A DNA stretch of 61,713 bases, counting the filler, from Sluysia triapertura (taxonomy: Eukaryota): NCBI GenBank assembly GCA_046118255.1. It is 5 parts of 5 records of this genome, joined end to end, with 100 filler letters (N's around TTAATTAATTAA, not from the genome) between each part and the next. Parts side by side here need not be neighbours in the genome. Positions count along the whole stretch, not along the records: positions 1 to 16,357 come from JBJNIA010205815.1; positions 16,458 to 27,655 come from JBJNIA010187479.1; positions 27,756 to 39,353 come from JBJNIA010182980.1; 2 more parts are not named here. One strand, written 5' to 3'. A program made the translations under genes and the position numbers. Of this stretch, positions 2,279 through 28,590 are shown piece by piece. Every line of letters begins with the position of its first letter. Within the stretch, counting starts at the first letter, position 1. The notes under the pieces are model-generated. The model saw only the letters and a list, made by a program, of their open reading frames with translations. It searched no databases and was not told the origin of the DNA.

Positions 2279-2280
<2 letters not shown>

Positions 2281-2311: not shown

Positions 2312-2313
<2 letters not shown>

Positions 2314-2567
2314 AAATAAATCAGTTATGTACATAAAATTATTATTATGCTAATAGTAAAATCACCATTTAAATGAGGTCGTTAAGATAAATATGGTATT
2401 ATATTACGTATAAGTACCAAACTATGAAAATACATTTTACAAAGACGCTGTATTTAGGAACGAAAACTGTTAATAAAATTTGGTTGTGGCATTGTCAATA
2501 GAAAAATCAAAATAGTTTAACTCCATCTATCAGTAGTTAATAGATTTAGCTGTCAAATATGAAGCTT

Positions 2568-5688: not shown

Positions 5689-6245
5689 CTAAATAGCTTC
5701 CTTTTTCGCACTTTTCAATTGATAGCAGAAGTAGATATGTTTACTGGATTCGAAATGTTTTAATTGACGATTCACTTCAGCCATTAACTCGCTACTGTAC
5801 GCTACGCTACAATTGTGAAGCTTTTTAAACTGCATTTCGTTTCTCGTACCGGTTTCGACTGACATCAAATAAGATACCCGACCTAATTCTTCGATAATAG
5901 TTTTAAAACGAACTATTGTTCCTTGCATGACTTTACCGCGCATAATAATAAAAGCAGCTACCACGTCGATCATTGCTCGTAATGCAATAGTTACAATATA
6001 AAAAAAGCAAAAAATCTCCCTAAGTATTTATACCAATGTCTTGTAAAGCTTTTCAAAATTGGCATGAAGAAAGACAATGAAACTGTAGTAAAACGTAATA
6101 ATAGTGATAACATGAAAAAGGAAAAGCGCACAAGAATAACATACTTGGATTGTCCCGAAATAATATTTAAACAGCCACTTGTGACGATTATATCATCTTG
6201 ATGTCTGCAGATTCCGTTTGTAAAAATCGTCAGCACCTATTGGAT
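5689..6245 (-). pseudogene. Decayed intronless ORF, hydrophobic or membrane protein fragment of unknown identity
   Basis: The frame of ORF 5689-5973 extends upstream through two stops (...ALFLFHVITIITFYYSFIVF...IALRAMIDVVAAFII...). It directly follows the CTH fragment. Confidence 0.35.
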
Positions 6246-6254
6246 AACATTCAC

Positions 6255-6782
6255 ATACTCTATTAATTAATGCGCATTATTACATAAGCACCATGATTTA
6301 AAGGTTGTTGAAAAACTGATGATACAAATATATTAATATTCTTATGAAAACTTTTGCTAATTTTAATAACTGCTTCAATATCAACATAATTTTCATCATT
6401 GGATTAGTTGGAGTTTCAATCCACATCATTTTAGTAGACGAAGTTAAACATTTCTTTAATAGTGCCAAATCTTGCAAATCAATAGCTTCACATGTTATTC
6501 CAAATTTCATAGCTACTTTCATAAAATAACGTCCAATTAATCCGTAAACATCAATAAAGTATAAAATTGCATCACCACGATTAAAATAATTAATAATAGA
6601 AAAATTAATGCACCTAATCCTGAAGCGAAAGCAGTAAAATAATGACCATTTTCCGTTGCTGCTATAGCTGTTGCTAATATTTCTCTATTATAATTACCAC
6701 CACGTGAATGATCGTATATGATTCTTGTAAAAAGTTGTAGATAATGAAATTGGTGGTATTATTGGTTGTCTTGCACCAACTT
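6255..6782 (-). pseudogene. CTH: Cystathionine gamma-lyase processed pseudogene (N-terminal half)
   Basis: Across frameshifts it reads PIIPPISLSTTF, YDHSRGGNYNREILATAIAATENG..AFASGLGA, DVYGLIGRYF, TKMMWIETPTNPMMKI and QQPLNHGA. These are Cys/Met-metabolism PLP enzyme motifs in the correct order. There are no introns, and it is truncated before the PLP lysine. Confidence 0.88.
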
Positions 6783-7394
6783 TACGATATACATAAGATT
6801 ATTTTCTTCCATTTGATCTTCTTTTGTTTGGTCTGCAATATTTCCACCAACAGAACTAGTATTCATATTAGGATCGCTACTAAACGGTTTTAATTTTGCT
6901 TCTATTGCATCCGAATATTCTTTTGATTTAAGCATAAGGCGATAAAGTGCTTTTACTATGGACGGTTTTAGATTGAGCAGATTTACTGAACTCAGTTTCC
7001 TTTTCAGATTTATTAATTAGTTCACGTATTTTCATTCTCATTTCTGAACCTAGTCGTGGCATCCGAACATTTAATTCGTTTATACACGCTGATAGATCTT
7101 TGGTAGATTCTAATATGTTTTGTCTTTCTTGTACCAATTGAATTGAGCAGAAGTGGGATTAATATTGTATATTACATATCCTTGTCTTCATTTCAGTAAA
7201 ATTATTCTGGTCATTATTATTGGTTAGACTTAGATGATGTATATCCCTTAATATTAACGAAGTTCTGGAATTTTAGTAAGAACAGCATAGTAAATCATCG
7301 ATTAATAAAATATTCGATAATAGTTGAATCACGTGAGCTTGTTTAATAATCACAAATATTTGAGCGAGTAAAAACATGGTTAGTGAATAAGTAA

Positions 7395-7637
7395 TATGTG
7401 GACGACGATCTTCTAGTTCGTTGTTATGGAAGCAAGAGAAGGAAAGATAAAAAATTATAAAGGAGTGGTAGCAAAATTAAAGGTGTTAAAAGAAATTCCA
7501 TTTAGTTTATTGTTATTTTAAAATTTTAAATACAAATTTAATGATTTTTGATGTAATGAGTGCTTTGGATGTTGTAAAAATGATTTTTAGTGTAATGTGA
7601 TGTATTAAAATTTTGTGTAAAGATGTTGGCCACCACA
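7395..7637 (-). mobile_element. Repeat module copy 1 (short), LTR/leader-like
   Basis: GT-rich on the plus strand, ends TTGGCCACCACA at 7637 and has ACGATCTT at 7405. Confidence 0.55.
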
Positions 7638-9264
7638 AATATAAAATCATATTGTTTCATTTTACGTAAACATTTGAATTATTCTTAGGATTTTGCTTTT
7701 TTGTGCATATAAATTTTACATTGTTAACTTTTATACATTGTTGTAATAAATAAAATTTAATCTGAAGTAATATTTTAAACATTGCTGAAACAATAAATGT
7801 TTATTTTTATTGTAATTAAAACGTTACTTCCCTTCAACCTTTTGTGTATTAGTGAATTACATAGTTGTAATATTATATAAAATAATAAATTCTCGTAAAC
7901 CAATAAATATTGGCTACATTAGTTGCATATTCATATTTCATTGGAGCAAACGTATTAAAAAATTTTATGTTGTTGGACACACAAAAATAATTGGAAAAAT
8001 ATTAGCAGATTGCAGAATAATTATAAATTAATTTTATGTTTAATTAAAAAGCTATTTTGGTTACAATAGAATTATAATGAAAATTCTCATTGTTTATAGA
8101 AATAATATTGTATCAAAGAATATTATTTGTTTTTCAGACAAAGTACTTTACAAGTAGTAAAGTACTGCATCAATCATATTAACAGTAATATTCACTTAAA
8201 TATAGGAAAAAATGAAGTACCTCAATTTCGTTCAATATTTAAGATATTTTATTTTAGAAGAATTTACACACGTGTTTCAAAAGTTTTCGAATGTTTGCAA
8301 ATAATTCACATTATCTGCATTAATATATCGACAAATTTAACAGAATTGTCTCCAAAAATCCACAATATTAAATATAGTTTCACAATTAGGCATTCTTATG
8401 TTTACTGAAATTTGCAATGATATTCAAAGACTACCATCATCAATTCAATTATCTATAACCAGCGAGAAACCGATGCTATACTTAAAAAGGAATTCACTTG
8501 AAAATCATAAAACTAAGCATAGAATAATGTGTGAAATTATTCATTGGTGCGTCTTTTATTTCAAATGACATTTTATAGAAATCTATTTATGTTTTATTCT
8601 GATTTTATTCCATATTATTGATATATACTGCAAATTTGTATTATAATTAATAATCTCGTTTATTATTGTTTTATCTCAAATCGAGTAGATCTTGCTCCAT
8701 TTCATACCAAATGGATATTTTCACCCATTTTATAAATAAGCAATATAATTAATTATGTAAATAAGTGCCAAATTTAATCAATATTAAGTTGAAGCTTGGA
8801 ACTGGGAATGAAATAAATTCTCCCCAATTGTCATTATTCGGCTTTGAGATTAAAATAAATCTTAACCGAGATCCGAAGCTAATTCACATTATGACATTGT
8901 ACGTAGTAAAAATTTTCTCTTATATTTAAAAGTTAAGAAACTTAAATTAAATTAAATTGTCAATGAAGTGATCAAAAAAAATAAATAAAGTGATAAAAAA
9001 ATTAGCTACTTGTTAAATCAAAAAATATATAAAATCAAAAGTAAGATTGAAATAAAATTTATATTTGATTTTAGTGAAAACTTAATAAAGTGTGAAATGA
9101 TTGATAAAAGTTATTATTCATCTTATGAATGCTACAAATTTTTCATCATCATCATCATCATCATCATCATCTATTTGGTGGGGTTATGTTTAAATTTGAT
9201 AAAGTTAGGTTTGAATTCATAAAATTAGCCTTGAGTGGATCTAAATATATTTGTGAATTTAGTC

Positions 9265-10169
9265 TTAATTGACAAAAAAATCTTTCAAGTTCAAGACAGT
9301 AAGTGCACGTACTGGTGTTGCACATCCTGCATGTAAAGCTCTGGTCAATGAATTTGCTTCCATGCAATCAACACAACGCATTTTTAAAAATTCATTACCG
9401 GATCTTGAAAGTTCATAACTCCAAAAATTATGAAATAATTTGATAATCTTTAACTTTTGTTTTCGTGTCTGAACTCTTTCTGTACACACTAAATTAATTC
9501 TAACACGAAAAAGTGATTCATGATTATAAAACGGTTTAAGCACATGAGCCCATTGATGCGAAGCTAACTGAACAAATAGAAAACCTTCTTCATTATCTTT
9601 AACTGAAATACACTTATTAGACATTTCAACTAATTTATCCATTAATTTCCCAATGTTACTTAATGGGTACAATTGTAAATTCGTGGCAATAGATCGATTA
9701 CAGTAACCAGACCTTACGAGATATTCACGAAGAGAAATAGGTTCTATTGTATTTATAAAATTGTGACATTCTGGATTCTGAATCAACACAGATTGAAATC
9801 CACTATCAATAATTATATTAAAATTTATTTTCAATTTTTCTATTGCGTCTCGATTAGAAGTAGAAGACAACATCAAAATAGACTCGTAATTATCAAGTGA
9901 ATCAATTGATTCGTTATCAGAATATGCGCCAAAAATAGATATTAAATTAGGATTCATATATTTGCAAACTTTACAGCATTCTTGATAATTGGGCATAAGA
10001 ATAATACTTTATATTTGTTATTGGTAATAACTGAAGGTATATTGTTATTCATTTTACCAGAATAGACATTTTTAATAGTATTTAAAATTACTTCAACCAA
10101 GTTTTCGAATTCAATTTGATTATCAAAGTCTACATTAACAATTTGTTCTTGTATCCAATTTAATTTCAT
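9265..10169 (-). CDS. Intronless orphan ORF (~300 aa if one frameshift near 9996 is repaired), with CxxC motifs
   Basis: The 243-aa ORF is unusually long for such AT-rich DNA and overlaps a 71-aa upstream ORF. It contains CCKVC and CVDC-x10-HAGC. Confidence 0.5.
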
Positions 10170-10329
10170 ATTATAAACTATACATTCAGGAAAGTGTAAT
10201 CGTCATATATCATTTGAAATTGGAGCAGTTAATATAATCAATATGTCGATAGACATAACAAAGGCGATAATAATGTTGTTGTATGTAGCTCAAAAAATGA
10301 TATTTTTATTTTAAATTATTATTAGTACT

Positions 10330-11448
10330 CGATGGCCAGAATTGTTTGCCAGAAAAATAATGAATTTTATTCTGGTTGGATGGCCAATAATATGAGTGCA
10401 ACATTTAATAAATTAGTTATAGTGAGTGATTAGCCATCATCAGTGTTGACATCAATCTGTTAACAGTAATGAACAATGTTAATACTGGTGATGGTAGAAA
10501 CAATTTTTGATGCATTAATAAAATTTTATCAATAATAATAATATAATGATAAAATTGGTAATAATGACAGTATTGATATTATTATCAATAAACTTGTATT
10601 CTTTAAAAACTGACATGAGCTTGCTTTTAATACTTTAATAATTCTTAACATATTTTAAATCTAAAAATAGTTGAATTGAATCCTATAACAATAACAAAAA
10701 TGGTGTTAAAGTTATTATTGTTATTAAATTACATAAATTGAATTCTTTAAAACTCTACACGATCTTCCTTTAAATCCTTTAGATTTCTTCACATATTGAA
10801 ATAAATCTAAATATATTTGAAACTAAAATCTCTGAATACAGATTAGTTTAAATGAATTTATATGTGATTAACGTTTCAAGGTATGATAGTAGTTTTATGT
10901 CGTCTAGTGAAATGGAGAATGTTAGAATGGATTTTTAGGTGGTGATTTAAGTTCTTGATTGAAGGTAATATTTGAATATTGGAAGATTTTGACCGCAAGA
11001 TGCATTAAGAAGAGTGTGGTTTGGTAAATGTGAAAAGATAAATTATAATACAATCCTTGGTATATTTGAAAGGTTATTGTGCAATGTTTTATGCGATTTG
11101 TTTATTTGTTGTTTTTAAGTGGTATTGTATTTTGTGTTGTTGGTGATTATGTAATGACAAATGCTGAATTCAAGGTGTTACAATTGATTCGGAGGTGTGA
11201 AGTAGATAATTTCAAATGTGGCTATTATTTGATTGTTATGAATGTCGAGTTACATATTTTTGATGGATTTGTTGGTGTAAATTGGTGATATTGGATGTAA
11301 ATGTGATGTATAAGTTATAAGATTGTGAATATGATTTAACTATGACAGATGAACTATTCTATAAGTGCAGAAAAGATGATATGTGAATATTAGAGTGTTA
11401 AAGGTTATTTTTTATCAAATTTAATAATATTAATGGTTGACCACCACA
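10330..11448 (-). mobile_element. Repeat module copy 2 (near full length)
   Basis: Ends TTGACCACCACA at 11448, with ACACGATCTT at 10757. TTTGAATATTGGAAGATT and AAGATAATTATAA blocks are shared with the 15.2-16.36 kb copy. GGTTGGATGGCCA lies at 10374. Confidence 0.65.
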
Positions 11449-12113
11449 AACAATAAGGAAATATTAAATCGATTGAATATTGAAATTGAAAAAGTTGAGG
11501 ATGCTACATCATTAAAAGTTAAAATAAAAACTACACATTATGAGTATAACAACAAATACCTTGGCGGATTAAAACAGAAGAACAGAAGAATACAAAACTG
11601 TTTTCAGAATTTAGAACGATCGAAAGAAGTCAATTCAAAGTCTCATGAATGTAAAGCTTTACTTACTGTTTAATCTGAAATTACATGATAACTTTAATAG
11701 TCTAAAGTATTTTACATTATTTTACATAACTATGACGAAAGAACAAAAAAAATTATAACGTGTCGATTTATTTAAAATTATATACAACTTTAACGTGTAC
11801 ATTCAACTTAGAACAAATTAAAATTATGTACGTCACTGTGTTATTTATTCTACGTGATCAGTATAGAATAATATATCAAAATTTCAAAGGTTCTGATTCA
11901 AATAAAATCATTTGGAATTTTATATTCTACAAACAAGTTTTTGGGGTTTTGCATTTTGATGGATAGATTATGGTCTGATCAACATTCACGCAATTCTTAG
12001 TTTTAAATATAAATATAATTATTGCTTCTTTTATTTTATTTTTTGAGTTACACTTACTTATCATTTCGAAGTTTAATAATATATTACAAAATACGTTAGT
12101 CAAATAAAAGAGT

Positions 12114-13186
12114 TTATTTATAAACATGTTTATTTATAAACTTAACACTTAAAATTTTAATATGTACATACTTGCTTCTGCATAACCTTCTTAAATTCTC
12201 CCGTGCTTCACTATCTAAAGAAAATTTAATACAATCATTATTATTATCTAAATACACAATAAATATTACTTTATTAGATTTTACTTTATGATTATTGCTT
12301 GCAGCTTTCGAGATCATAGACTGGATGCTTTCATCTAATTCTTGGATTTGTGTATTGGTCATTCCGTATATGTAATTGCATTTAGTTCCATTCTTTAAAC
12401 AGGTTCCCATTTCATCCGAAGAAAAAGGACAATAAGGGACGTTACCAATTACAAAACTTGTTTTGATTTTAACATTCTTGTGGAAGTTATGATAGTAAAA
12501 GAGATCAGCTTCATAATCTTCTTCATGAACGTATGGTTTGTATTTATCATCAATGTCGCTGAATCGTTGGCTACCTTTCATAATTTTCTTTTCTTTGATT
12601 CCATTATCATGATCATAGTTAAGATTCTTCTGATGATGCAACATGAGATCGCGGTCAATTTTATAATATTTGGAAAAATCATCAAAATTTATCTGTCTAT
12701 AAACTTTAACAAGTATGTGATTATACGGTGACTTTACAATACGTAATGTATTTTTTAAATGATATTTCAGACAAATACTGTAGCAACTTTCATATTGTCA
12801 TTATTAACATCGCAGTTTATTATGTAGAAATAATCGAAATGGTGAGTAACATCTTTATAATGTCTTTGGATTAGATATTCGTTGTTGTTTGAAATATTCC
12901 TTTGATAATTAACGACTAGATGAGTGTCGAGGTAATTTTCATGCATAATGTCCTTTTCAATTTGGTAATCAAAATTTTCTTTTGAATTATCTAATTGTGT
13001 TGAGGGCAATGATAAATTTATTTTTAAGAAACCATTAATATTTTTATCTATTTTAAATTTTTTATTGAGAAAATTTACAACATAAATTAAGTAAAAACAA
13101 TTCAACTTTAATTTTATAATTATAAACGAAATAGGCTTAAGGCCTGTAAAAATTAACAAATCTAAAACAGTAACAAAGTGTGACAT
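12114..13186 (-). pseudogene. Intronless ~350-aa ORF broken by a stop and a frameshift near 12755; C-terminal domain possibly an AID/APOBEC-like deaminase
   Basis: ORFs 12767-13186 and 12114-12644 are linked by a coding-like spacer. The C-terminal part has H-E-E, then FVIGNVPYC-x9-C, KVIFIVYL and ENLRRLCRSKYVHIKIL. Confidence 0.35.
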
Positions 13187-13201
13187 TTTATTATAATTGA
13201 A

Positions 13202-13402
13202 TTATAACAAATAAAGAAAAGATATAAACAAAGTTAATAATAAAACTAGCGGTACTACAAAAGACGTTTTCGCTGCTATTTTTTCAGAACTGTTGAAATT
13301 CGATAGTATAAGTGGTAACGTAAACATTATTAAACACGCAGTTTCTTTGATTAATTGTTTATTTTTGAGTAAACGATAAAGTAAAGTTATAATGTTTAAC
13401 AA
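13202..13402 (-). CDS. Small hydrophobic ORF with two predicted TM segments
   Basis: 66 aa, ending 15 nt before the next co-oriented ATG. The start codon is not ATG. Confidence 0.25.
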   Translation of the reverse strand: MLNIITLLYRLLKNKQLIKETACLIMFTLPLILSNFNSSEKIAAKTSFVVPLVLLLTLFISFLYLL

Positions 13403-13749
13403 TAATCATTACATATTGTCTAGTATTTATAATAATATTCACAGAATGCGATAATTTTCTTTATTGAAACTAACTCGAACGTTAAACTTTTCTTTATTTT
13501 TATCAACATAATTATTAATTATATCATTTTCAGTTAAACTACACGAAAAATAGTCGAACATTTTGTAACAGCTAGTTTCAAGTGATGAAAACCGTCAATG
13601 GATATTTTAATAAACAAATATAATCATAATGTATACAATAAATTTCAAATAATTTACTTTTAATAATTCAAATTAGTGTTATAATAAAACAAAGTATAAG
13701 ACTTATTGTTTGTAATTGAATAATAATAAATTTCATATATTCATTCAAA

Positions 13750-14300
13750 AATATGTGTATTAATTGGAAAATTTTATTACCAGCAGAGGCCCTATCGAGA
13801 TAATACATTGGGCTTTGTCAAATTAATATTATCCATTGTGATATTTTTAGACCAAAAATAAAAATATGACAAATATCAACTAAATCTTTTAACTTTGGTA
13901 ATACTGGTTTAGAATAAATTTCGCAACGATCACAGTTTGATAATGAAGTTACTTTTCCACAAGTTCGATAAGGGACACAATAATTTTTTTGTGGATCTAG
14001 ACGCCATTCAATATGCGATTCCATTTTTAAAGAATTACACGAAGTTACTGGTTCTAGGCATCTTTGAGGCTATTTTCAATGCTTAATCTGTTGGTACAAA
14101 CACGGTGAAATAGATTCAACCAAATTTGATTCGGAAGTAAGTGATATGACTTCACTGGAAGAATTACCAATTTCAAACTCAAAAGGTTTGTGAATAACAC
14201 TTTGTGGAAATACTGTAATTGTTGAAAGTTTCAGCGAAGTTACTTGTATAAATAGTGTTATTAACATTATAATCATTATTGTCACTTTCTATTTCATTAT
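13750..14300 (-). pseudogene. Decayed secreted or membrane Cys-rich protein
   Basis: Signal-peptide-like IMIIMLITLFIQVTS, then an in-frame continuation through stops into a Cys-rich segment (YCVPYRTC...NCDRC) and a hydrophobic C-terminus. Confidence 0.4.
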
Positions 14301-14479
14301 GATTGTAGATAAAAGAGAATTCTGGAAAACAGTGATCGTATCAAATGTAAATTAAGAAATTGAGCATATTTATATAATTTCTGTTTGCTAAATTATGGTT
14401 ATTAATTGTATTTCTATTATATCTAGTAGTTAATGCAATTTCTTTTGAGATGAATAGTATGAATCGAGAGCAAATATAT

Positions 14480-14870
14480 TGTGTAGTATTGGGGAAAAAC
14501 ATTGAAGAAAAACGAAAAAAATAGAAAGACAGATTGATAAGAAGAATAAAAGAAATAATAATGATAACAATAACGTGGTTATTATGTTTATTAATATTAC
14601 CGTTGTTGATGTTGAAATAAAATTTATTATAAAATTTGTTATAAAAGTTATTAATTGATAATCATATTATATAACAATAATGACAATAATTATTATATAA
14701 GTTGTTTAGCACGATGTGAATTGTAATAACAATAGTTGTAGTTCATGATAATTAGGTACGATGATCATGTTTGTTTTTTAAATGAGTTTAGTATTTTGTT
14801 TAATAATCTGTGTACGTGTGAAGTGTTTTTATGTGATGAAGTGTGATGAATTTTGTGTAATTTCCCTACA
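14480..14870 (-). mobile_element. Repeat module copy 3 (divergent terminus)
   Basis: GT-rich, with GTGATG..AATTTTGTGTAA shared with copy 1. It ends CCCTACA, and an AAT-rich tract lies on the ORF-proximal side. Confidence 0.35.
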
Positions 14871-15194
14871 TTAATTTATTTTCTTTTTTATCTCTTCGTC
14901 ACCTTCTTTTATAAATCTTTTTGTTTCATTATTGTACGACGCAATCTGCTGATAATCAACAGTAGTTTGATGAAAGTCGAACAGGCCAAAATCAGATTCA
15001 AAGTTTGTCAATAGATAATATTTTATTACTAAACCATTGATCTTTGAGTGATACGTAATGACGTTATTATCATTCATGATACCTTTACTTTTTAATTTTG
15101 TACTGGCTTTAAATTTTTTCCTTTTGTTTTTGTTCACAAAAATTTTTAAAACATTAAATAATAATTAATGGTACATCTGTGAATATTTTTTTAT

Positions 15195-16357
15195 CTTGAT
15201 TGGTTATCCAACCTAATCATCCCAATGATATTTTTATGCAAGTGATTTGGTTGGATAACCATTGTAATCAGTGATTTAATTTTAGTAGTTTATCATATTG
15301 ATTTGGTGACGATGTGATCAACTATGATGACTATCATCGTCATCAGTGACATAAAATTGTAATTATAAAGCAAAGTGTCATTGCTGGAGGTGGCGGTAAA
15401 ACAGCCGATTTTATTAATCATAATTTAGATTAAAATAATGATAAGGATAATGATTAAATGGTAATAACAATAATAACAACGACAATATTGTTATTATTAT
15501 TAATATTATTATTATTATAAAAGAAAAACGCATAAATTCTTGCTTTATATCTTAAACACAACCTTGCTTTGACTTTCTTGATTTTCTGGACATATATAAG
15601 TTGTAGAAATGAAGAGAACTTTCGTCTTTGTGAATTTATGGCGGTGAGGCTTTTCTTTGTGATTTTACGTTCTTTTGTATGATTGTTTCTGATATTCTGA
15701 ATTACTTATTTTGAAGTAGTGTAAGTGTTCTACAAAGTTCCTGGTGTTTTGAAAGAAAGTCTTGTTTCAAGCTGAGAGTGTATCGAAATGTAATATTTAT
15801 GTAATTTTTGGATGTTGATTAATATTTTTAAGTGGAAGTAAGAGGGAAAAGTATGAGAATGTTAAACGTTTTAGATGATTTGAAAATATATGACTTAGGT
15901 ATTTTAAAATAATATGAGTGATTTATGTTTTTTTCTAAATATACGTTGGTATTTTAATGAAACTTATGTTTGAATGTTGGAAGATTGTGGTTACCAATAT
16001 ATTGAAAAGAGAGTAGTGTAATGGGTGTGAAGAAGATAATTATAACCTATGTTTTGGTCTATTGTAAACGGTGATTATGTGATTTTGGTTACGTTGGTAT
16101 TGAACTGTGTGTGAAAATGTTTATAATAAATTTTACCAGATTGTGGTATATTGTTAAAGGGTATAATTTTAGTTGTGATGTATTAGTTTTTACTACGATT
16201 TAAGAAAAATGTGTGATGTATATTTTAAAGATTTGTAGAATTTTGATGTGTTTGTTGGGATTAGTGAAGAATAAGGGTTAATATAAGGGTCAAAACTTAG
16301 GATAACAGAATAAGTTGAACGTTATTAAAGAACTAAGACGAGGCATTATGATGAACT
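15195..16357 (-). mobile_element. Repeat module copy 4 (terminus lost in the gap)
   Basis: TTTGAATGTTGGAAGATT (15969), AAGATAATTATAA, CATAAATTC..ACACAACCTT (15531) and GGTTGGATAACCA (15249) align with copy 2. Confidence 0.65.
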
Positions 16358-16457
16358 NNNNNNNNNNNNNNNNNNNNNNNNNNNNNNNNNNNNNNNNNNN
16401 NTTAATTAATTAANNNNNNNNNNNNNNNNNNNNNNNNNNNNNNNNNNNNNNNNNNNN
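16358..16457. other. Assembly spacer 44N-TTAATTAATTAA-44N
   Basis: The identical 100-nt construct occurs four times. The palindrome places stops in all six frames. Confidence 0.95.
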
Positions 16458-16467
16458 AATAATAATA

Positions 16468-16536
<69 letters not shown>

Positions 16537-16599
16537 CGATACTTACTTAATTATGTCATCCGTATGAAATTCAAAACCAGATTATAAGTGATAAATTTG

Positions 16600-17380
16600 C
16601 TTTTTCTAGTTTTATGCTCTGCTGTTAATTTTGTTTCATATGATTATTTTCAGTTATGGTGTTAAACGGTTTATTATAATCTGAATAATTATATTATAAT
16701 TATAATTTGTATAGATGATGTTGTTGCAATGTGTTGTCTAAGTAATTTGTGATGCTAGAGGATATTGTGCCATTGGTAGCATTATAATATTGATATTGTA
16801 ATAAAAATGGTTGGTTTTTGGAGAAATAGTTGAGTATTGCAGTTCATTAGCGTGAACATCAGAAGGTGAACTTCCTTGAGGAAGGTGTAGATGATTAGGG
16901 TAAGATACAGAAATTGATGGATTAGGGTACTGATAAAATTTGGGTAAATGATGCTGAATTGTTTGATTTATTGAAAGTTCTAGCGTACATATTTGGAAAT
17001 GACATATGTATGATCTTCACTAACATTGTTATAAGTCATAGTAATAACTTTTATTAGGCAAATAATAATTAGTTTGAGTGTTATTTGAGTTTACCATAAT
17101 TGGAGTGATATGTACTTCTGAATTCATTAATAACTGTGAATATTGTGGATACTTTCTGCAATTGAAATAGGTTTTACTATCGTTACTGATCCGTGTGGTG
17201 ATGGTAATAATGGTAAAGCAGATTCAGTAATGTACTCTGAACTTTATTTGTTGTTGCCAGATGTTGACACAGAGTAAGTAAAGTTAATGGAAAGCCAACA
17301 ATTACTGTGCGGTGTTCTGCTAAAGAGAAGCATAAAATTCGACTTGGCAACATTTTGGACAAGTATCGCGACAAGACTTG
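16600..17380 (-). pseudogene. Heavily decayed intronless ORF, glycoprotein-like
   Basis: Fragmented frames contain N-x-S/T sites (NNT, NKS, NVS, NAT, NGT). It lies downstream of module copy 5. Confidence 0.25.
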
Positions 17381-17594
17381 CGTAAATAATTTGATGTTAA
17401 TTTAAGAAAAATATAATGTTTCAAACGAATAATCGACTTATATAAGTTTCTTGCAAGTGCATCAATATTAATTTATGTTGGAAGATTCCCAGGAATTGTT
17501 TTGATAATAACCAAATAAAACCAATATAATTTTCTGACTGGATAAATATATACTTAAATTTTAGTCGATTATAATGAGATAACAAAATCAGAAG

Positions 17595-18619
17595 AATGGC
17601 AATATATAGGGATAAATAAAACAATTTTTTGCATTATAACAATATTTAATTTAGTTGTAGGTAAATGTTAATGTTGTTTTGAACATCTGCTGAATTTTGA
17701 GTAATGTTGTGTTTCCGATTTTTAAATAATTGTGTTAGGTTGACTTGATAATAATGGACCAAGTATTGATCTCTGAGGAACTCCATGCTTTACATATACC
17801 TCATTTGACATATAAATTGTTATTCATATACCTCATTCAATAAAACATATTGCCTTCTTTCTTTTAAATATGATTCAAATGTAAAAGAAATGACTTGAGT
17901 TATACTTAAGAGGAAGAGTATTAAATAAATTACTAAAATTTGTTAAGATTTGATCCTTGAATATGATAGTTTGAGATGGTTATTGAAAGGTTGAAGTTAT
18001 TTTAGTTTTAAATGACGATTACAAAGTAAATCTTAACGTAGCTTGGTGTAGTTGATTAAAGATTTTAATGTAAATGATTTATGTTTCTGAGGTACTTGAT
18101 AACGTTGTTGAATGGTGTTATTGTGTTTATCATTTGTGTATTATATATTGTGATTGTGGTTTGTTTGATAGAATATCTTATGAGTGAATATTGTGAGTTA
18201 TTCGAGATTAAATGTCGGAGTTTGTTGTGCTGTGGATGATTAAAAGTGTTGGTCGAATTGTTGATGTGTGGGGATTAATGAGATGTTATAAATATCGAGT
18301 GTTGTTTATGGTGATTGTGTTGGTGTAATTCGATAGTAAGAAGTGTGGTTGTTTTGAAATTATATTTTGGTGAAGTTTAACTTACGAATATTGGATGTGA
18401 TGTTTTGATAAATTTTAAGTTGTGAGAGATGGCCACTACAAATGTCAATATATAGTGATAAATAAAACAATTTTTACATTATAATAACAATATTTAATTT
18501 TGGATTGTAGTTGTGTGTAAATGTTAATGTAAGTATTGTCGATGTTGTTTTGAACATCTGCTGAATTTTGAGTAATGTTGTGTTTCCGATTTTTAAATAA
18601 TTGTGTTAGGTTGAGTTGA
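17595..18619. repeat. Direct repeat (17595-17748 and 18441-18619) flanking module copy 5
   Basis: 73-nt perfect identity between 17671-17743 and 18542-18614, plus a gapped upstream match. Confidence 0.9.
17749..18440 (-). mobile_element. Repeat module copy 5
   Basis: Ends ATGGCCACTACA at 18440. The last ~150 nt align colinearly with 27880-28024 (TTGTGTTGGTGTAATTCG, GAATATT). Confidence 0.7.
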
Positions 18620-20952: not shown

Positions 20953-21000
20953 GTGAGTTCACCAACGTACTGGACTTACCAGCGAGGACCAGCCGTTGGA
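20953..21000 (+). repeat. Structured dispersed repeat, copy A
   Basis: GTGAGTTCACCAACGTACTGGACTTACCAG..CCAGCCGTTGGA. Other copies lie at 39505-39624 (-) and 41681-41785 (+). Confidence 0.85.
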
Positions 21001-22909
21001 TTTTAATGTAAAGTATGAGTTTAACTAAGTTCACTTAACACTATAAATTGATGTTAATTATGTCTCAAGTCTGGTGTTATCTGTATTCAAAATATAATTT
21101 ATTAAATATTAAGAAATTTAAATAAGGTTACGTAAATCCCGTTATATGGGATCAATCAAATAAATGTTACTTACTAGAATTACAATCTAGTGTTTGAAAA
21201 CAAATTAAGTATTTTAAAGATTTTATAATAAATAAAAGAAAATAATTTGGTTATTCAATAATTTATTTATACAGAATTAACAATATAATAACTAGATACA
21301 ACTAGATATACAATGTTTCATGAAATTTAAAAAAATTGATTTTACTTTGAACCCTTATATAGTTCAGTTATGTATTAAAAATTTTAATCTGTATTTTTCT
21401 TGTGATATTTATATATCAATCCTTAATATAAATTATACTAACGTGACTTTTGTTAATGACAACTGTTTCTTCCAAATGATTAAAATCAAAGATTCAAAAA
21501 TTTTTACAAAACAACTGTGAAATAACTGTGTGAACTTTACAAAATAACTTGTGAAAATAAGTGTGAGTTTATGTTAAAAAGCTTTCATTTAAATAGTGTT
21601 TTAACCTGACCTTGAGAGGTCAAATTAAAACAAACTAAAAAAATTTAAATTAAAAATTTTCAAAGTCAGCTTAATTTATTTAAAATTAATGAAATAAAAT
21701 TTAAAATAACATATAAATTAATAAAATATTTGAAATAACATACATTGATTTCAAAAGTTAATATTCCAAAAAATAAAACAAATTTAAATCAAATATTCCA
21801 GAAAAGTTAAATAAAAATTTTTAAATAAATCAAATAAATAATCATATCATCATTATTAAATATATATACAATTTATCAATATATTTAAATAAAAATTTAT
21901 CATTCAACATAAATGAGTATCAATGTAAATACATAAATGATTATCAATGTAGATGATGTAAATGATTCACTAAAAATGACACCAAAAATGATTTATCACA
22001 AAGAGTTAAACAACAAAGTGAGATATTTTATTTACAAATATCAACTACGTAAAATATCTTTCGTCAATCCAAATTAGAAACGAATGCAAGGACCTTCAAG
22101 AGGAAGGTTAATGTTGTAACTTAATGTGGCATAAGAATTGTTAGCATAGTGATAGATAGAAATAATGTAACTTCTCGTGCACCCAATGAATTTCAATCGA
22201 TTTCTACAGCGATTTATTGATTTTACTTTTTTAAAACGATCTGTATTAAGTCATGTCTACCATTTTAATAACACTTGAAATACAGCACATCTTTAGATTT
22301 AAACTTCAATTATTTTCATAAATTTAGATATTTAAGAAAATACTCCGTTATTTTAATACTTAGACCCTTAAAACAATCCAACAATAACATAATAATTCTT
22401 TATTACACATCAAATCAAAAATTTTAAAAGGCTAATAACTAAGTTCTAATTTTAAACGTAAAACTCTCTTTGTCTTTTTAGAGATTTTTATCATTATTTT
22501 CATTTTGTTTCGATTCACGAAAACCAGTACCACTAAATGTACATTGTCCAATCATAATTTTCGATACTTTTTGTCCAATAAATGCTCATTGATTTTTAAA
22601 TTACATTTTTTGTTTATTTTTAACGCTTATTTTGCTGAATTTCGTTTTAATCACAACCTTACGAAGATTAAATCATAAAACTTTAATCATGACCTTTTTA
22701 AAAACCATTTTTTGTGACAAAATTCAACATTTTTCAAGGATACTATAAAACTATTAATCAAAAGTGTATAAAAACATTGTCACAGAAAAAGTAAAATGTT
22801 GGGAAAATAACTACTTTCTCCAAAAATAATAGATAAAAATACTGAGATTCAAAACATACAGAAATTTTATTCATGTAGAATGATAACACAATTTACTACA
22901 AATTAAATA

Positions 22910-23180
22910 TCAGTACTTTGTTTGCCCTCCTTTGTTATCCAATAATTTCCTGATCCTTAAAGGCATACCACAAGTCTTTGATCTCGTCGTCGTGATGCCA
23001 TACCTTTATCAGGGCTGGTTGGTTTATGGGTAGAAAATCTCCCAGAGATTTTCTATGGGATTCATGTTTGGAGAGTTTCCAGGCCAGAGTAGCAAATATT
23101 TAGAAAACCATATTTTTCCTGTTTTAGTCTAATAATTTGGCCATCATGAACGCACTAAAACGCACTTTCGTAGGTTTTAA
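22910..23180 (-). mobile_element. Tc1-family transposase C-terminal remnant
   Basis: WPGNSPNMNPIENLWE (23039-23086), LIKVWHHD and MPLRIRKLLDNKGGQTKY* match the Tc1 WPxxSPDLNPIENLW...MPxR..KGG.TKY pattern. Deleted and frameshifted. Confidence 0.88.
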
Positions 23181-23798
23181 TATAATATAAGTATAAATAT
23201 CATACTGATATTATATTATTAGAGTTAAATTTTTATTATCTTTTATAAAATTTAAATGAAATTGCTACTAAAGAATGTGCGGTTCACCTACGATATTTCT
23301 CGTGCAAGTGGTTGTCGATTCTTGATTTATTTAATTCTATTTATAAACTATTCTCTAAGCTCAGGATAAGTGCAATATAAAATACATTGCTTTACACTTA
23401 ACACTAAAGCAAAATAAGAAATATTAATGCGTTCGGATATAATCCGCGACTTAAAACCTATAATGGGTATGTCTGTAGCTATCGAAATCATTTTATAACA
23501 ATTATTCTTTCTGTGCTAGTGAGAAACTTAACTCAGTATGGAAATTAGTTGATAAGCGTATCGATATTGTTGAGGGTTTTTGTATTTAGATCTTGTACTC
23601 GTTATATGCCGAAAAACAAAACACAATCGAATTCGTATTGTTTATTCAACTAAAATGGTTTTCCTTTTTGTGTTGTAAGTTCTTAAGTTAATTTTTCGAG
23701 GGATTTTAGCTCTCATTAAATTGGCAAATAGTGATTACAAAGAAAAACGATTCTACTTATTAATATTGTTACTATATTATTATTATATCTTACGAATA

Positions 23799-24222
23799 CC
23801 GTGTTTCTCCGAAAATAAGATGTTTCAGGATGATTTTAATTTAAGACCTAACCCTAATAATAATATTCCTAATTAAGATACTTTCATTGTCAAAGCATTC
23901 TGGTTCACTTTCTGACTGTAACAAGATTCTCGTTATTAGCAATTATCAAAGCATTTCTTCTTTGATACACAGTATCCATGAGAATGTTCATGGTGACATA
24001 AACACGTTTAAATTTTAAATGAAATTCGTAAATAATCTCAACTATAGATTGCAAAAACAGTAAGACATACGCAGTTTTTAATACGAGAAATAATTAGACT
24101 ATCTGTTAGAAATTATCTATCATAATTCTCTCTACTTTTTAACTTTGTTTTTCGATAGATTAAAATAGTATACCCTCCAAAAATAATTATTATAAACCCT
24201 GTCTTATTTTCGGGAAACACGG
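23799..24222. mobile_element. Non-autonomous pogo/Tigger-like TIR element (MITE)
   Basis: TA|CCGTGTTTCTCCGAAAATAAGA ... TCTTATTTTCGGGAAACACGG|TA: ~22-bp TIRs with a TA target duplication. Confidence 0.88.
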
Positions 24223-24839
24223 TATGTTATTACATACAATTATCATTTTATATGCTACTGTGTTATTATATATGTCAGCGTTCAAAGTCTAAAATAGTAA
24301 TAGTGTAATGATAATAATAATAATAATAGCGGAAACTCGAAATATCAAATGTATGTATTTGTTTCATTTAAATGTCTATTTTAAAGAATTGATTAACATC
24401 AAAAAATAAATAAATGATTTATTTAATTAAATAATATCAATATTTAAACAAATCGAAATCGCTTCAGTCACACACAACAATAGTATAATTAACGGTAAAC
24501 AAGAGCGATTCATTTATGAATTCTATTAATTAATCTATTTTTGGCAAAAATATTCAAGTAGATTTTGGTGGAACTGATCCGATTTTATCGTGATTATATT
24601 AAATAACAATAAAATGATTTATTCGCTCACCTTCCTCAAGTGAAGGTTTAAAATGTAATATTATTTGCATCTAGTTTGAAGCTAGGTTTAAAATTGTTCT
24701 ATATTAATTATATTACACTTAACATATTAACTTATTATATTTAATATTTTTTGTACATTTCTATATTTGAATTTGTACTTTGTTGCAGCTTTTGAATTTG
24801 AATAATAAACCTTCAAGAGTACTTGTGTTTGTTATTCAT

Positions 24840-26330
24840 AAAGAATTAATGAATCCAAAGGAATTATCAGAGACAATGACAATATTAATTTCATTTTTTG
24901 AAATATAAAAATTTTATGGACATTAAAAGTTATAGCTTCAAACATGATATTTGATGAACTGTTTGCATTACGGAAGTTATAGTTATTCTCCGGTAGTGGA
25001 TTTCTAAAATAAAAGGGATCGAAGTTAAATAGTAAAGGGATACAAAAGAATGAAATTACTTTAAACTCAAAGTCATCTGTGCAGTTAATAAGTTGAGTAG
25101 TTTGAACGACATCATTATAATTCTTGTTACCTGTCGATTTGTTTTTGCTTTTGACATCATGAATAGCCTTTATGAGATTGTTTATACTTTGTACGTGACC
25201 ATGAATAACTAATTTGACTGATAGTATGGTAAAACTTGCAAGATTGTCCGAATTTACTCCATTGGCCTAGTTCATTAGATTGAAATGGGCATTGTACTGT
25301 TCTAATTAAATTATAATTCTTCTGGTTTGAAATAATTTCGATCACGAATGCGGTTGTTGAAGGATTACGATTATTTACAATGTCAGATTCATTAGGAGAA
25401 TAGTAATTAACTTCAGAAAGTTTCGTAAACTTTGAATATCTTTCTTTTACAGAATTAAATCTATACATATTACTTTAATTAAGGCAACGAGGAATACTTG
25501 GTGAAAAAGTGTAACATACATATTTGCCACTAAGTCAGAATCCATTTTAAATTATTAATTTTCTTTAACATTATGTGTAACTCGACCACAACATTATATT
25601 GCTATTAATTTTTTTCGTAAAACCGATTAAAATAGGTACAAACCGCCAAACATTTTGAGACGAAAAGACATTGTTTTTCATTAAAATTTTATATATGAAC
25701 TTGACAAAAATACAATGCCATAATGATTTAAGAAATTTCGAACTTATGTCTGATGGTAATTTATCAACTTGTACAATGTACTGATTGATATTGATTAGAT
25801 CATTTAGAGACATGATTGAAAAACTAAGAAATGAATTGTTTGCATTTGGTTTAGTTTGAGTTAGAAACTCGCACCCATCTGGAGCAGAATATGGTCTAGA
25901 GGATACATTAATTAGAGAATAAGACTGATAAGATAACATTTTATATCTTGGTTATGAATCAGTGAATTGAAAATTTAAAGGTTTTATCGGATTATGTTCG
26001 TAAACTAAAAAATCATATGAAGTGCTTGATACATTTTTGTCATTTAAATCGCATGAGTAATTAGGGTCACTATAAGCTTTGACCAAATTATCAGGTTCAT
26101 TTACTTGATTATCTAAACGAATTAGCATTTCTTGACTAATCTGTTCAATTGCCTTGGCTTTAAATTCATGCCAATTCAATACATATTTAACACTGTTGTG
26201 ATGTGATATTTGTTCAGAAAACATTTAGAGGTTGGAAATATGGAAAAGTCGTCTCAAGTATTTGACATTACAAAATTACACTGAAATATAATTAATTGCC
26301 GTATCAAAACACTTCTTTTTGATTAATTTT
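24840..26330 (-). pseudogene. Decayed ~480-aa intronless glycoprotein-like ORF
   Basis: Consecutive ORFs 25952-26224, 25571-25939 and 25157-25468, plus a downstream frame ending in hydrophobic LILSLSLIIPLDSLILM. Many N-x-S/T sites and scattered Cys. Confidence 0.45.
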
Positions 26331-26379
26331 TTAAAAGATTTTTATACAAATTATAACATTTATGAAAGCAAATGGTTTT

Positions 26380-27164
26380 GATAATTGCGTGGCTAATTGG
26401 TTTTACAATTTGTGCAGCAATTTCAATTAATTATTTTTGTGTATGTTTATTACTAGTTACTATCTTATGATTGGATGTCCAATCAGATGAAAACAACGAA
26501 ATTAAATGGTAGAATGTATAGAATGATGTATTAATTCGGTAAGCAACTGCCATCAATTGACAGTTGATAAAGTAATGTAAAAATGTTTTTAATTAAGCTG
26601 TCGATTAAAAGGTAAATGATGAACGAATAATGATTAAAATGATAATGATAATGTTAATACTAATAATGTAGATAATAATAATAAAATGTAATAATAATAA
26701 AAAGTTCTGCATAAACTTTAATGCTTTCTCACACGATCTTTTCTTTTATTTAGTTCTTTCTTAACATATAAATAAATTTAATATAAGTAAAGTTTTATTG
26801 AGCTAAGATATTTAAAATGATTAAGGAGTGTGAGTTTAAGGTTTTCCAAGGTGTCAATGATTGGGTTTGAAAGGATTGAGAACTTAAAATGTTTTGGGTT
26901 AATTTTAACATGTATAATTGATAATTTGAGATATAAATTGTGGTTCTAATGTTGTGGAATAGTGAATAAAATGTTCTAAATAAGATTTGAAATGCACATT
27001 AATGGTTTGAAAGTAAGTATAACTTTAATGTAGAGTTGTGAATTTAAAGTGTTTTGAAATGAAAATTGTTTTAATGAATATAAAATATAAAATGTTAGTA
27101 AATGAGATAGTATGAATGAAATGATTATTTTGAATTTTTTAAGTTCAAAAGGTTGGCCACCACA
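26380..27164 (-). mobile_element. Repeat module copy 6
   Basis: Ends GGTTGGCCACCACA at 27164. CATAAA..ACACGATCTT..ACATAT..AAATAAAT at 26710-26780 aligns with 10733-10810. Also has an AAT tract and a GATTGGA-TG-TCCAATC hairpin. Confidence 0.7.
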
Positions 27165-27173
27165 TACACACAC

Positions 27174-27204
<31 letters not shown>

Positions 27205-27205
<1 letters not shown>

Positions 27206-27236
27206 ACAGGGTGACCCAAAAGTAACCGAATCGCAA
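27205..27236 (+). mobile_element. Single Tc1/mariner-type TIR
   Basis: TA|CAGGGTGACCCAAAAGTAACC. No partner end was seen before the gap. Confidence 0.45.
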
Positions 27237-27655
27237 ACTTAAATAAAAATTATTAATTTATAAAATTATCCATTAAATAAAAAATATTCATTTATGCATG
27301 TATAAATATTCATAATTATTAATTAATAATTTTCTCTTATACTATATGTACTTTATTAAGCCATAAATTTATTATACAATATACAATAATTTCTAATTGT
27401 TCTTAATTATTCTACATTTTGGAAGCTTTGTTAGTTCATTGAGTGAAAATTTATTTTGAAGTTTAGAAAAGGTAAATGAATTATTGAACTTGTTGAAAAT
27501 ATCAACAAACAAATATTCAATAGATCTTGGGATTAAATTTTAGTTTTTTCAAAAAATGTCTGTTATTATTCACGAATATTGTATTTTTAAGATTGTGTTT
27601 ATTAAGCCTTTTTATTTGATCGTCTATTATGGGGATGAATGAACAATATATATAT

Positions 27656-27755
27656 NNNNNNNNNNNNNNNNNNNNNNNNNNNNNNNNNNNNNNNNNNNNT
27701 TAATTAATTAANNNNNNNNNNNNNNNNNNNNNNNNNNNNNNNNNNNNNNNNNNNN
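27656..27755. other. Assembly spacer
   Basis: 44N-TTAATTAATTAA-44N. Confidence 0.95.
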
Positions 27756-28024
27756 AGTATTTAATGAATGAATGTTACGAATTGTTTGAGCTAAATGTAG
27801 AAGTTTGTTATGTTAGAAATGATTGAGATATTAGTTGATTTGTTGTTGTATATGAGTTGATGAGGTGTTGTGATTGTCTAATGTTTTATGATGTTTGTGT
27901 TGGTGTAATTCGGAAGTAAAAGAAAGATATGATTATTATGGAAATTGCATTTTAGTTGATGTTGATTCATGAATATTAGATTTGGTATTTCGATTGAGTT
28001 TAACTATGAGTGTTGACCACTACA
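27756..28024 (-). mobile_element. Repeat module copy 7 (terminal part only)
   Basis: Ends GTTGACCACTACA at 28024 and is colinear with 18200-18440. Confidence 0.7.
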
Positions 28025-28484
28025 TCGTAAACAGATGAAATGAATAAACAAATACTAACAAGCACAAACTAATCCAACTCGATAATAACTAGAAATTGAA
28101 TGAATATGAATGTATATCTGAATTATAACATGGACAAATAAACATTAGTCATATATAGAATGAAATTCACAAACTATAGAAAGAAATGGGCTCTGTAACA
28201 AAATAAATTAATAAGAATTCATAATTAATAAATAATAATTAATTAATAATTAATTAAAGATTAATAATAAAATGATTATTAAAGAATGGAACAAAAAACG
28301 AATTGACCATAGTATATTAAAAGTATAAAAATAAAAGACAAATTAGAAATAAAGCTAATATTAATTTGAGAGTAACAGAATAAAAAAGAAAACACAAAAG
28401 AAATAAATGATAATTGATTTTTATTTGAATGTTTCTTTTTTATTCGATCGCTGATTTTAAACAATTTTTGGTTATTTGTTAAAA

Positions 28485-28590
28485 TTCCGCCTGATGCCCC
28501 GAGTGTAAATTTCACTAGATATTTTCTAGTAATATGTTACATGAAAAACAGATCTATTAATGTTATTTTATGGGTCCAATGGACTCGCAT
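28485..28590 (+). repeat. Dispersed DNA-transposon-like repeat, internally deleted relative to 58190-58495
   Basis: Shares TGTAAATT..ACT..ATTTTCTAGTAAT and TGTTATTTTATG(G/A)GTCCAATG with the 58 kb copy. Confidence 0.6.

What the first reader, a model, noticed from the sequence alone, without database searches (positions are those of the whole stretch)
5689..28024. Co-oriented family of LTR/leader-like modules, each heading a different intronless cargo ORF: candidate gene-capturing retroelement or expression-cassette array
Seen: up to seven diverged copies of one non-coding module, all in the same orientation. Five share a sharp terminus TG(G/A)CCAC(C/T)ACA (ending at 7637, 11448, 18440, 27164 and 28024; minus strand 5'-TGTRGTGGYCA). 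One has a divergent end (14870) and one runs into a gap (16357). The fuller copies share an internal order on the minus strand: a CA-rich body, an AAGATCGTGT block (7405, 10757, 26731, variant at 15556), a (TTA)-rich tract, then hairpins. Downstream of six copies lies an unrelated intronless ORF in the module's sense: a CTH chimera, a CxxC orphan, a Cys-rich secreted protein, a basic 88-aa ORF and two glycoprotein-like ORFs. No gag, pol or transposase was seen. Known: LTRs begin with TG, and LTR elements can capture mRNAs by template switching. Inference: this is a non-autonomous element family whose 5' module mobilises or expresses interchangeable host- and virus-like cargo.
Basis: partly seen in the sequence, partly recalled or inferred. 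Interest (0 to 1): 0.82.

Follow-up and report, generated by a model that had tools for sequence, protein, structure and literature searches.

The report
Solo LTRs carrying swapped gene cargo
This animal genome region is a pile-up of highly repeated mobile DNA pieces, likely lone end-repeats (solo LTRs) of large retrotransposons, that share one end motif but carry different, mostly broken genes inside, one of them an intron-less piece of a host enzyme gene.

Summary
The modules are real mobile-element ends, but of several diverged subfamilies, not copies of one sequence. Five exact TGTRGTGGYCA termini lie where reported (shuffles: mean 0.02). Contigs of one public run pile up far more deeply on the modules (bin depth 5,000-241,000) than on unique flanks (contigs of depth 15-18). 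They map one element completely: 12996-14870 (1,875 bp) starts TGT, ends ACA, has a 5-bp target duplication with one mismatch, has no terminal repeats, and holds its ORF inside. That is the anatomy of a solo LTR. This element is nested in another module's ORF, so the 'basic 88-aa ORF' is a cut-off piece. Two cargos share a CCCH-like motif, so not all are unrelated. The cystathionine gamma-lyase (CTH) piece lacks a 35-nt intron seen in a low-depth contig and is itself repeated (depth about 1,300), which points to capture through RNA. No gag-pol partner, primer site or expression data could be tested, and the sense strand is unresolved. Best reading: long solo LTRs of Gypsy-like elements with accessory or captured ORFs inside the LTR, like the MMTV sag gene. 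New variant of a known kind.

The parts
12996..14870 (-). Fully bounded element, 1,875 bp, TGT...ACA, no direct or inverted terminal repeats; likely a solo LTR; nested in the ORF of the 16357 module
   Evidence: Empty-site joint 12991->14872 in 2 contigs with 5 shared letters, plus two neighbouring joints; ends and target duplication; repeats
14871..14875 (-). Target-site duplication, near copy (ATTAA)
12991..12995 (-). Target-site duplication, far copy (ATTAG; one mismatch)
13821..14288 (-). Cargo inside the mapped element: hydrophobic N-terminus and Cys-rich part, broken by stops; no family
   Evidence: depth 152 at 14150 against 6,000-29,000 on both sides
7400..7637 (-). Module 1: terminus at 7627-7637 and short C/A-rich body; far end not found
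   Evidence: bin depth about 6,400, and a unique contig begins at 7638
6762..7158 (-). ORF pieces of no family upstream of the CTH piece
6301..6758 (-). Frameshifted N-terminal piece of cystathionine gamma-lyase (CTH), lacking an intron at 6535-6541
   Evidence: Pfam PF01053 E 2e-15 and 1e-4; best solved-structure match is CTH, E 6e-15; intron-bearing contig of depth 24.4, and depth 1,326 at 6386
5689..5973 (-). 94-aa ORF of no family after the CTH piece
10300..11448 (-). Module 2: terminus, C/A-rich body, block (10720-10810), TTA-rich tract, TGGNYATCCAAYC at 10374-10386
   Evidence: bin depth 5,000-16,000
9265..10169 (-). Orphan cargo in two overlapping frames (71 aa and 243 aa), with CxxC motifs
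   Evidence: bin depth 1,700-1,950
15180..16357 (-). Module 4: start lost in the gap; body, block (15515-15605), TTA tract, strong hairpin at 15198-15261
   Evidence: bin depth up to 241,000
14874..15164 (-).
12770..12991 (-). Second piece of the module-4 ORF, beyond the insertion
12114..12797 (-). ORF with CCCH-like motif; no credible relatives
17850..18440 (-). Module 5: terminus and body, ending before the block; closest relative of module 7
17595..17748 (.). Second copy of 18441-18619 (82% with a gap), bracketing module 5
16741..17633 (-). Broken ORF remnants (hydrophobic, Cys, Pro/Ser-rich); link to module 5 unproven
26400..27164 (-). Module 6: terminus beside a TA/TG microsatellite, body, block (26695-26785), TTA tract, hairpins, motif at 26469-26481
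24835..26224 (-). Broken cargo in four pieces; CCCH-like motif in 25160-25474, similar to that of 12117-12797
27756..28024 (-). Module 7: terminus and body running into a spacer; cargo unknown

Best explanation
These are high-copy mobile elements bounded by TG...CA, likely unusually long solo LTRs of Gypsy-like retrotransposons that carry an accessory or captured gene inside the LTR itself. Shown: a shared terminus, very high repetition of the ends, lower repetition of the cargo, one complete 1,875-bp unit with a 5-bp target duplication and no terminal repeats, nesting of one unit in another, and intron loss in the CTH cargo. Inferred mechanism, with the minus strand as the element's sense: an autonomous partner (not in this window) supplies reverse transcriptase and integrase; during reverse transcription the enzyme switches onto a co-packaged mRNA and fixes a piece of it in the LTR; the LTR and its cargo are copied to both ends of each new insertion; recombination between the two LTRs later removes gag-pol and leaves one LTR with its ORF. 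The block, TTA tract and hairpins would be the promoter and leader of that ORF. Cargo is swapped between subfamilies over long times (two keep a CCCH-type gene, others hold unrelated ORFs), and the copies here are mostly decayed.
For: Mapped unit TGT...ACA with ATTAA/ATTAG duplication and empty-site contigs. No direct or inverted terminal repeats. All 6 intact near ends fit TGTNR, the pattern given for most Gypsy LTR termini (PMC2836005, passages); short inverted ends of about 7 bp are the LTR norm (PMC3601003, passages). Depth 6,000-29,000 on both sides of the mapped unit's ORF against 152 at one site inside it; 241,000 in the last bin of the module-4 body against 94-222 at five sites in its ORF. 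The CTH piece lacks a 35-nt GT-AG intron that a contig of depth 24.4 carries at this site, and has depth 1,326 at 6386 against 15-18 for unique contigs. It is partial and joined to unrelated ORF pieces, as described for template-switch retrocopies (PMC5131818, passages). All six cargo sets lie on the minus strand. Precedent for an LTR-encoded gene and for solo LTRs: MMTV sag (PMC11998498, passages).
Against: Only 1 of 7 units has both ends mapped, and its duplication has a mismatch; a second parse gives a perfect 5-bp duplication with one extra base at each end. Candidate far ends for the other five intact starts are not convincing, and downstream regions do not align (15 pairs, z 2.4 or less). 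No two-LTR element, gag, pol, primer-binding site or polypurine tract could be tied to the family: Pfam found no gag or pol in 277 fragments and no genome is held. The plus strand fits the textbook LTR layout (poly(A) signal, then G/T-rich U5, then CA) at least as well. Depth is summed over contigs at 80% likeness, is no copy number, and reaches 64-335 even over unique stretches; all of it comes from one run, which may be the source sample. The intron rests on one contig. An intron-less ubiquitin/STE24 chimera at 38443-39352 has no such module upstream, so captures in this genome are not confined to the module.
Confidence: 0.5

Rival explanations
1. Same solo LTRs, read the other way: the plus strand is the element's sense, the G/T-rich body is U5 ending in ...CCACTACA, the block is the poly(A) site, and the cargos are antisense genes in a long variable U3, driven by a two-way promoter.
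For: On the plus strand all three full modules show an AATAAA-like signal, a shared CATAAA and then a T-rich stretch and a G/T-rich body, the layout reported for animal Metaviridae LTRs (PMC3601003). The best hairpin folds more strongly on the plus strand (z -6.6 against -5.5). This end is the more conserved and more repeated one, as U5 usually is (own knowledge). Antisense accessory ORFs exist in plant Retand elements (PMC11963269, abstract). A plus-strand piece at 11449-11670 also lacks an intron.
Against: Template switching puts a captured mRNA in the element's sense, and CTH is on the minus strand. Retand antisense ORFs lie before the 3' LTR, not in it. AATAAA is common in 75% AT DNA, and the far end of the mapped unit has AATAAA and a T/G-rich stretch on the minus strand too.
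Confidence: 0.22
2. The modules are ordinary 5' LTRs and leaders of larger elements whose first internal accessory ORF survived (as with Ogre, Retrosat2 ORF0 or the upstream accessory ORF of Burro); the mapped unit is a deletion derivative.
For: Such upstream ORFs are described (PMC6431247 section 7; PMC3485330 abstract). Six of seven units have no mapped far end. TGGNYATCCAAYC begins with TGG like a primer site.
Against: The mapped unit is repeated along its whole length by bin and has no terminal repeat, so it could not be reverse-transcribed as a two-LTR element. The TGG motif differs between copies at positions 4-5, follows CA in only 1 of 3 copies and is a hairpin arm. No gag follows any cargo.
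Confidence: 0.12
3. Non-autonomous cut-and-paste DNA transposons with TGT...ACA ends (Ginger-like) that pack gene fragments, as Pack-MULEs do.
For: Ginger ends follow TGTNR with 4-5-bp duplications, and Ginger2 prefers AT-rich targets (PMC2836005). No retroelement enzyme is linked here.
Against: Ginger elements have inverted repeats of about 40-300 bp; the mapped unit has none. Intron loss in CTH needs an RNA step.
Confidence: 0.07
4. Endogenised segments of a multi-segment virus, each with a conserved end, a long leader and one ORF.
For: Conserved terminus, structured leader and a single orphan ORF per unit; a virus-like RING and membrane-protein cluster lies elsewhere in the window.
Against: Target duplication and TG...CA ends, very high repetition, a host CTH cargo; no viral match.
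Confidence: 0.04

Closest known systems
Solo LTRs of Gypsy/Ty3 (Metaviridae) retrotransposons
   Same: TGTNR start, CA end, 5-bp target duplication, no terminal repeats, high copy number, nesting.
   Different: At least 1.9 kb long with ORFs inside; no gag-pol partner seen, so the superfamily (Gypsy or BEL/Pao) is not established.
MMTV LTR with the sag gene (PMC11998498, passages); HIV nef and foamy-virus bet overlapping U3 (recalled)
   Same: A protein-coding gene inside the LTR that would stay behind in a solo LTR.
   Different: Vertebrate retroviruses with one fixed gene; here an invertebrate-type genome, several different cargos and a captured host mRNA piece.
Burro giant Gypsy elements of planarians (PMC6431247, section 7)
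   Same: AT-rich animal host, thousands of copies, accessory ORFs and host-like domains such as RING.
   Different: Burro's extras are described in the internal polyprotein or an upstream ORF; no Burro domain (BIR, MATH, BCL2, gag, pol) was found here and the host is not shown to be a planarian.
LTR-mediated retrocopies by template switching (PMC5131818, passages) and variable ORF3s of bdelloid LTR elements (PMC5408684, passages)
   Same: Partial, intron-less, chimeric host sequence amplified with the element; different extra ORFs on related elements.
   Different: There the capture replaces or follows internal ORFs between two LTRs; here the cargo lies within a single TG...CA unit.
Ogre, Retrosat2 and Retand elements of plants (PMC6431247; abstracts of PMC3485330 and PMC11963269)
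   Same: LTRs of 2-6 kb and orphan extra ORFs, some antisense.
   Different: Their extra ORFs are described outside the LTRs.

Membership tests
Solo LTR of an LTR retrotransposon | TG...CA ends | tested here: met
   1 of 1 fully mapped unit; TGTNR at 6 of 6 intact near ends
Solo LTR of an LTR retrotransposon | 4-6-bp target-site duplication with an empty site | tested here: met
   5 bp with one mismatch, empty site in 2 contigs; not found for the other five intact starts
Solo LTR of an LTR retrotransposon | Same sequence occurs as paired LTRs around gag-pol, with primer site and polypurine tract | not testable with these tools
   No genome held; no gag or pol among 277 window fragments scanned
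Solo LTR of an LTR retrotransposon | U3-R-U5 layout: poly(A) signal followed by G/T-rich U5 | tested here: inconclusive
   Fits the plus strand at the shared block and, by eye, the minus strand at the far end
Gypsy/Metaviridae (against BEL/Pao) | Reverse transcriptase and integrase phylogeny | not testable with these tools
   No pol sequence linked to the family
Burro elements | Giant gag-env-pol polyprotein with BIR, MATH, BCL2, ankyrin domains between long LTRs | not testable with these tools
   None of these domains in the fragments scanned; a solo LTR would not hold them; Burro LTR sequences not available
TRIM/LARD non-autonomous LTR elements | Two direct terminal repeats around the cargo | tested here: not met
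   No terminal direct repeats in 12996-14870
Ginger1/Ginger2 DNA transposons | Terminal inverted repeats of about 40-300 bp | tested here: not met
   None at the ends of the mapped unit; lengths from PMC2836005
Penelope-like elements/Terminons | Hammerhead ribozyme motifs in the terminal repeats | tested here: not met
   Rfam scan at gathering scores found only one tRNA; divergent ribozymes could be missed
Endogenous element of a segmented virus | ORFs related to viral polymerase, capsid or glycoprotein | tested here: inconclusive
   No match, but the searches are weak for orphans of an unsampled host
LTR-mediated retrocopy | Cargo lacks introns of the parent gene | tested here: met
   35-nt GT-AG intron in one contig, absent from the window's CTH piece
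LTR-mediated retrocopy | Short sequence similarity at the switch points | not testable with these tools
   Needs the parent mRNA and the pre-capture element

The most novel reading that the evidence does not exclude
A family of large invertebrate LTR elements in which the LTR itself is the gene-capture cassette: promoter, structured leader, an exchangeable ORF and poly(A) site all lie in one terminal repeat, so that solo-LTR formation has scattered thousands of self-contained mini-genes, some of host mRNA origin, through the genome.
Probability: 0.28. Interest if true: 0.75.

Novelty: new variant of a known kind. Interest (0 to 1): 0.52.

Why it matters
Solo-LTR formation normally deletes everything a retrotransposon encodes. 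If the cargo rides inside the LTR, it is doubled at each insertion and survives that deletion, which gives a route for amplifying host gene pieces (here CTH, some tens of times above unique depth) and for seeding orphan genes with their own promoter. LTR-encoded genes are known from vertebrate retroviruses. In 10 literature searches I saw no listing that describes exchangeable cargo inside invertebrate LTRs; the library lacks most subscription papers, including the Burro genome paper, and repeat databases were not searched. It also warns annotators that such solo units would be called as lineage-specific genes.

Tried and rejected
Whole-genome search: no genome held. Relatives of cargo proteins: none for 9268-9996 or 47342-47749; for 12117-12644 none in viral contigs and two spurious hits to repetitive proteins among 1.84 billion representatives. 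PHROGs: 1 weak hit in 25 proteins, ignored. Single-sequence structure predictions were too poor to use (mean pLDDT 37.9 and 55.8), so no fold search was run. The protein atlas gave no answer. No RNA holder listed. Hammerhead ribozymes: CTGATGA occurs in two leaders but without the rest of the core by eye, and Rfam found none. TGGNYATCCAAYC as primer-binding site: rejected (see rival 2). Far ends by target-duplication search: only chance-level candidates for five starts. Contig depth and joints for the 18440 and 27164 modules were not obtained, so their ends and cargo repetition stay open. Earlier findings of this scan: nothing held. Host identity: TFIIS matches spiders and a blood fluke at 66-68%, which does not place it; 35-36-nt introns and 25% GC suggest a flatworm (recalled knowledge, untested). 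PMC13238120, PMC8532177 and PMC13524379 (passages) added nothing on LTR-internal ORFs. No supplements were read.

Full report
Setting. The window is about 25% GC and eukaryotic: it holds a V-ATPase d exon, TFIIS exons, a RhoGAP piece and a tRNA. TFIIS matches animals at 66-68% and does not place the host. Four gaps are artificial spacers (N44, TTAATTAATTAA, N44), and the seven modules lie on three pieces between them: four in 1-16357, two in 16458-27655, one in 27756-31854. No whole genome is held. One public run, X1, holds 41% of the sampled words of 9000-16300 as contigs; it may be the source sample.

The observation. The five termini are exactly where reported, and 5 exact matches compare with a mean of 0.02 in 100 shuffles, though the motif was chosen after the fact. 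A scan for TGTNR followed by a jump in C-over-G skew returns 15 sites, among them all six intact starts. The bodies, however, are hardly alignable: 18440 with 28024 gives z 20 and 70% identity, the other 20 pairs z 4.1 or less. Three modules (11448, 16357, 27164) share a ~90-nt block (z 4.9, 5.6, 2.8) and, further on, TGGNYATCCAAYC. In a window-wide scan the block's true partners do not stand far above AT-rich background. The block at 7405 is chance-level. Hairpins are significant in two of four leaders. So these are related subfamilies that share an end motif, a composition and, in three cases, an inner layout.

They are high-copy mobile elements. Laying the contigs of X1 on 2400-16357 at 80% likeness gives four long unique contigs of depth 15-18 (2400-4888 and 7638-8670), background bins of 28-335, and module bins of about 6,400 (7060-7991), 5,000-16,000 (10322-11719), 106,000 (14516-14981) and 241,000 (15914-16357). 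Cargo bins are lower but above background: 1,748 (CTH), 1,713-1,954 (243-aa orphan), 988-2,105 (CCCH ORF region). The tool warns that such depth is no copy number; I use it only for order of magnitude. At single sites the contrast is sharper: 152 at 14150 inside one cargo against 6,000-29,000 on both sides, and 94-222 in the module-4 ORF. Ends are thus shared far more widely than the middles, as expected if one shell carries different or faster-diverging contents. Only 15 of 234 joints and 6 of 2,949 loose ends were shown. One shown joint links the 7637-type and 14870-type ends on opposite strands in one contig, so copies elsewhere are not always co-oriented.

One unit is mapped at both ends. 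Two contigs join 12991 to 14872, with 5 letters that fit either side, and two neighbouring joints agree. On the minus strand the skipped unit starts TGTAGGG at 14870 and ends CAACACA at 12996; it is flanked by ATTAA and ATTAG. It is 1,875 bp, has no direct or inverted terminal repeats and contains the Cys-rich ORF remnant and about 800 bp of AT-rich tail. TG...CA ends, a 5-bp duplication and no terminal repeats are the marks of a solo LTR; TGTNR is the stated pattern of most Gypsy ends (PMC2836005, passages; PMC3601003, passages). For the other units no far end was found.

The cargos. Only CTH is identifiable (Pfam PF01053; human CTH is the best solved match, E 6e-15). It is an N-terminal piece, frameshifted, and preceded and followed by ORF pieces of no family. 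One contig of depth 24.4 carries 40 other letters between 6535 and 6541; on the minus strand these contain a 35-nt GT-AG intron, and the exon letters read as the conserved motif of the enzyme, whereas the window has five bases and no intron there. The window copy is therefore a processed copy, and with depth 1,326 at 6386 it has been amplified. A second contig shows a 36-nt GT-AG intron at 11610/11611 on the plus strand that the window lacks; whether that piece is cargo or the landing site of the 11448 unit is open. The ORFs of modules 4 and 6 share a CCCH-like motif (best of 456 pairs, z 5.0; Pfam hits under the cut-off) and may be one old accessory gene, while module 2 has the same inner layout but an unrelated ORF. 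No cargo has credible relatives. Pfam found no gag or pol in 59 + 93 + 125 fragments; it found a DDE transposase scrap at 23027-23128 (E 0.003) and a Pif1 scrap at 34036-34206.

How it most likely works. An autonomous LTR element, not seen here, would supply the enzymes. Reverse transcriptase would switch onto a co-packaged mRNA, as described for animal LTR elements (PMC5131818, passages), and fix a piece in the LTR; each insertion would then carry it twice, and LTR-LTR recombination would leave a solo unit with its ORF. MMTV offers the precedent of an LTR-encoded gene and of solo LTRs (PMC11998498, passages). I take the minus strand as sense because all six cargo sets and the captured CTH lie on it. 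The plus strand remains a serious rival: there the block looks like a poly(A) site followed by a G/T-rich U5, which would make the cargos antisense genes in U3. Counting both orientations, the long-solo-LTR reading has about 0.7. Shown: ends, repetition, one duplication and empty site, nesting, one intron loss. Inferred: the partner, the recombination, the promoter and any expression.

Comparison. It works like a solo LTR that keeps an accessory gene. Membership of Gypsy or of the planarian Burro group (PMC6431247, section 7 read whole) cannot be tested without pol. TRIM/LARD, Ginger and Penelope-type elements each fail a defining test on the mapped unit or the window. Extra and captured ORFs are well known in LTR elements of rotifers and plants (PMC5408684, passages; abstracts of PMC11963269 and PMC3485330), but are described there between the LTRs. 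In 10 searches I saw no listing for exchangeable cargo within invertebrate LTRs; coverage is incomplete.

Verdict. New variant of a known kind; interest 0.52.

Noticed in passing
window 46777-50596 (minus) and 3073-4892 (plus): Two diverged copies of a multi-ORF cluster, collinear in five pieces (tblastn E 8e-6 to 0.012; 11 control regions gave at most 2 hits each). The younger copy is up to 41% GC and has a RING finger (Pfam E 1.7e-7) and a membrane protein with two hydrophobic helices. Virus-like or accessory region of a large element; no relatives found; no module seen upstream of the plus copy, and the other starts at a gap.
   Followed up: partly
window 38443-39352 (plus): Ubiquitin scrap followed by a diverged STE24/CAAX protease piece in one 256-codon frame without introns (Pfam E 1e-31), running into a spacer; looks like another processed chimera, without the module upstream.
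   Followed up: partly
window 11449-11670 (plus): Open frame directly beside the 11448 terminus that lacks a 36-nt GT-AG intron present in a contig of depth 26.4; gene not identified.
   Followed up: partly
window 17595-17830 and 18441-18619: A ~155-180-bp duplication brackets module 5; between the module and the second copy lies a short stretch that resembles a LINE reverse transcriptase motif (recalled, not confirmed by a call).
   Followed up: partly
window 16358-16457, 27656-27755, 39354-39453, 50597-50696: Artificial 100-base spacers with stops in all six frames; two abut TTA/TAA microsatellites. Order and orientation across them are unverified.
   Followed up: no
window 2571-2810 (minus): Last exon of V-ATPase subunit d; no further exon was found in the fragments scanned, so modules 1-4 may lie in one long intron of this gene.
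   Followed up: partly
window 23027-23128, 28282-28752, 34036-34206, 58182-58491: Scraps of other mobile elements: a DDE transposase piece, a Pif1 helicase piece, and a short stretch repeated at 28.5 kb and 58.2-58.5 kb.
   Followed up: no
window 1335-1406 (minus): A tRNA with an irregular anticodon loop, not assigned by ARAGORN.
   Followed up: no
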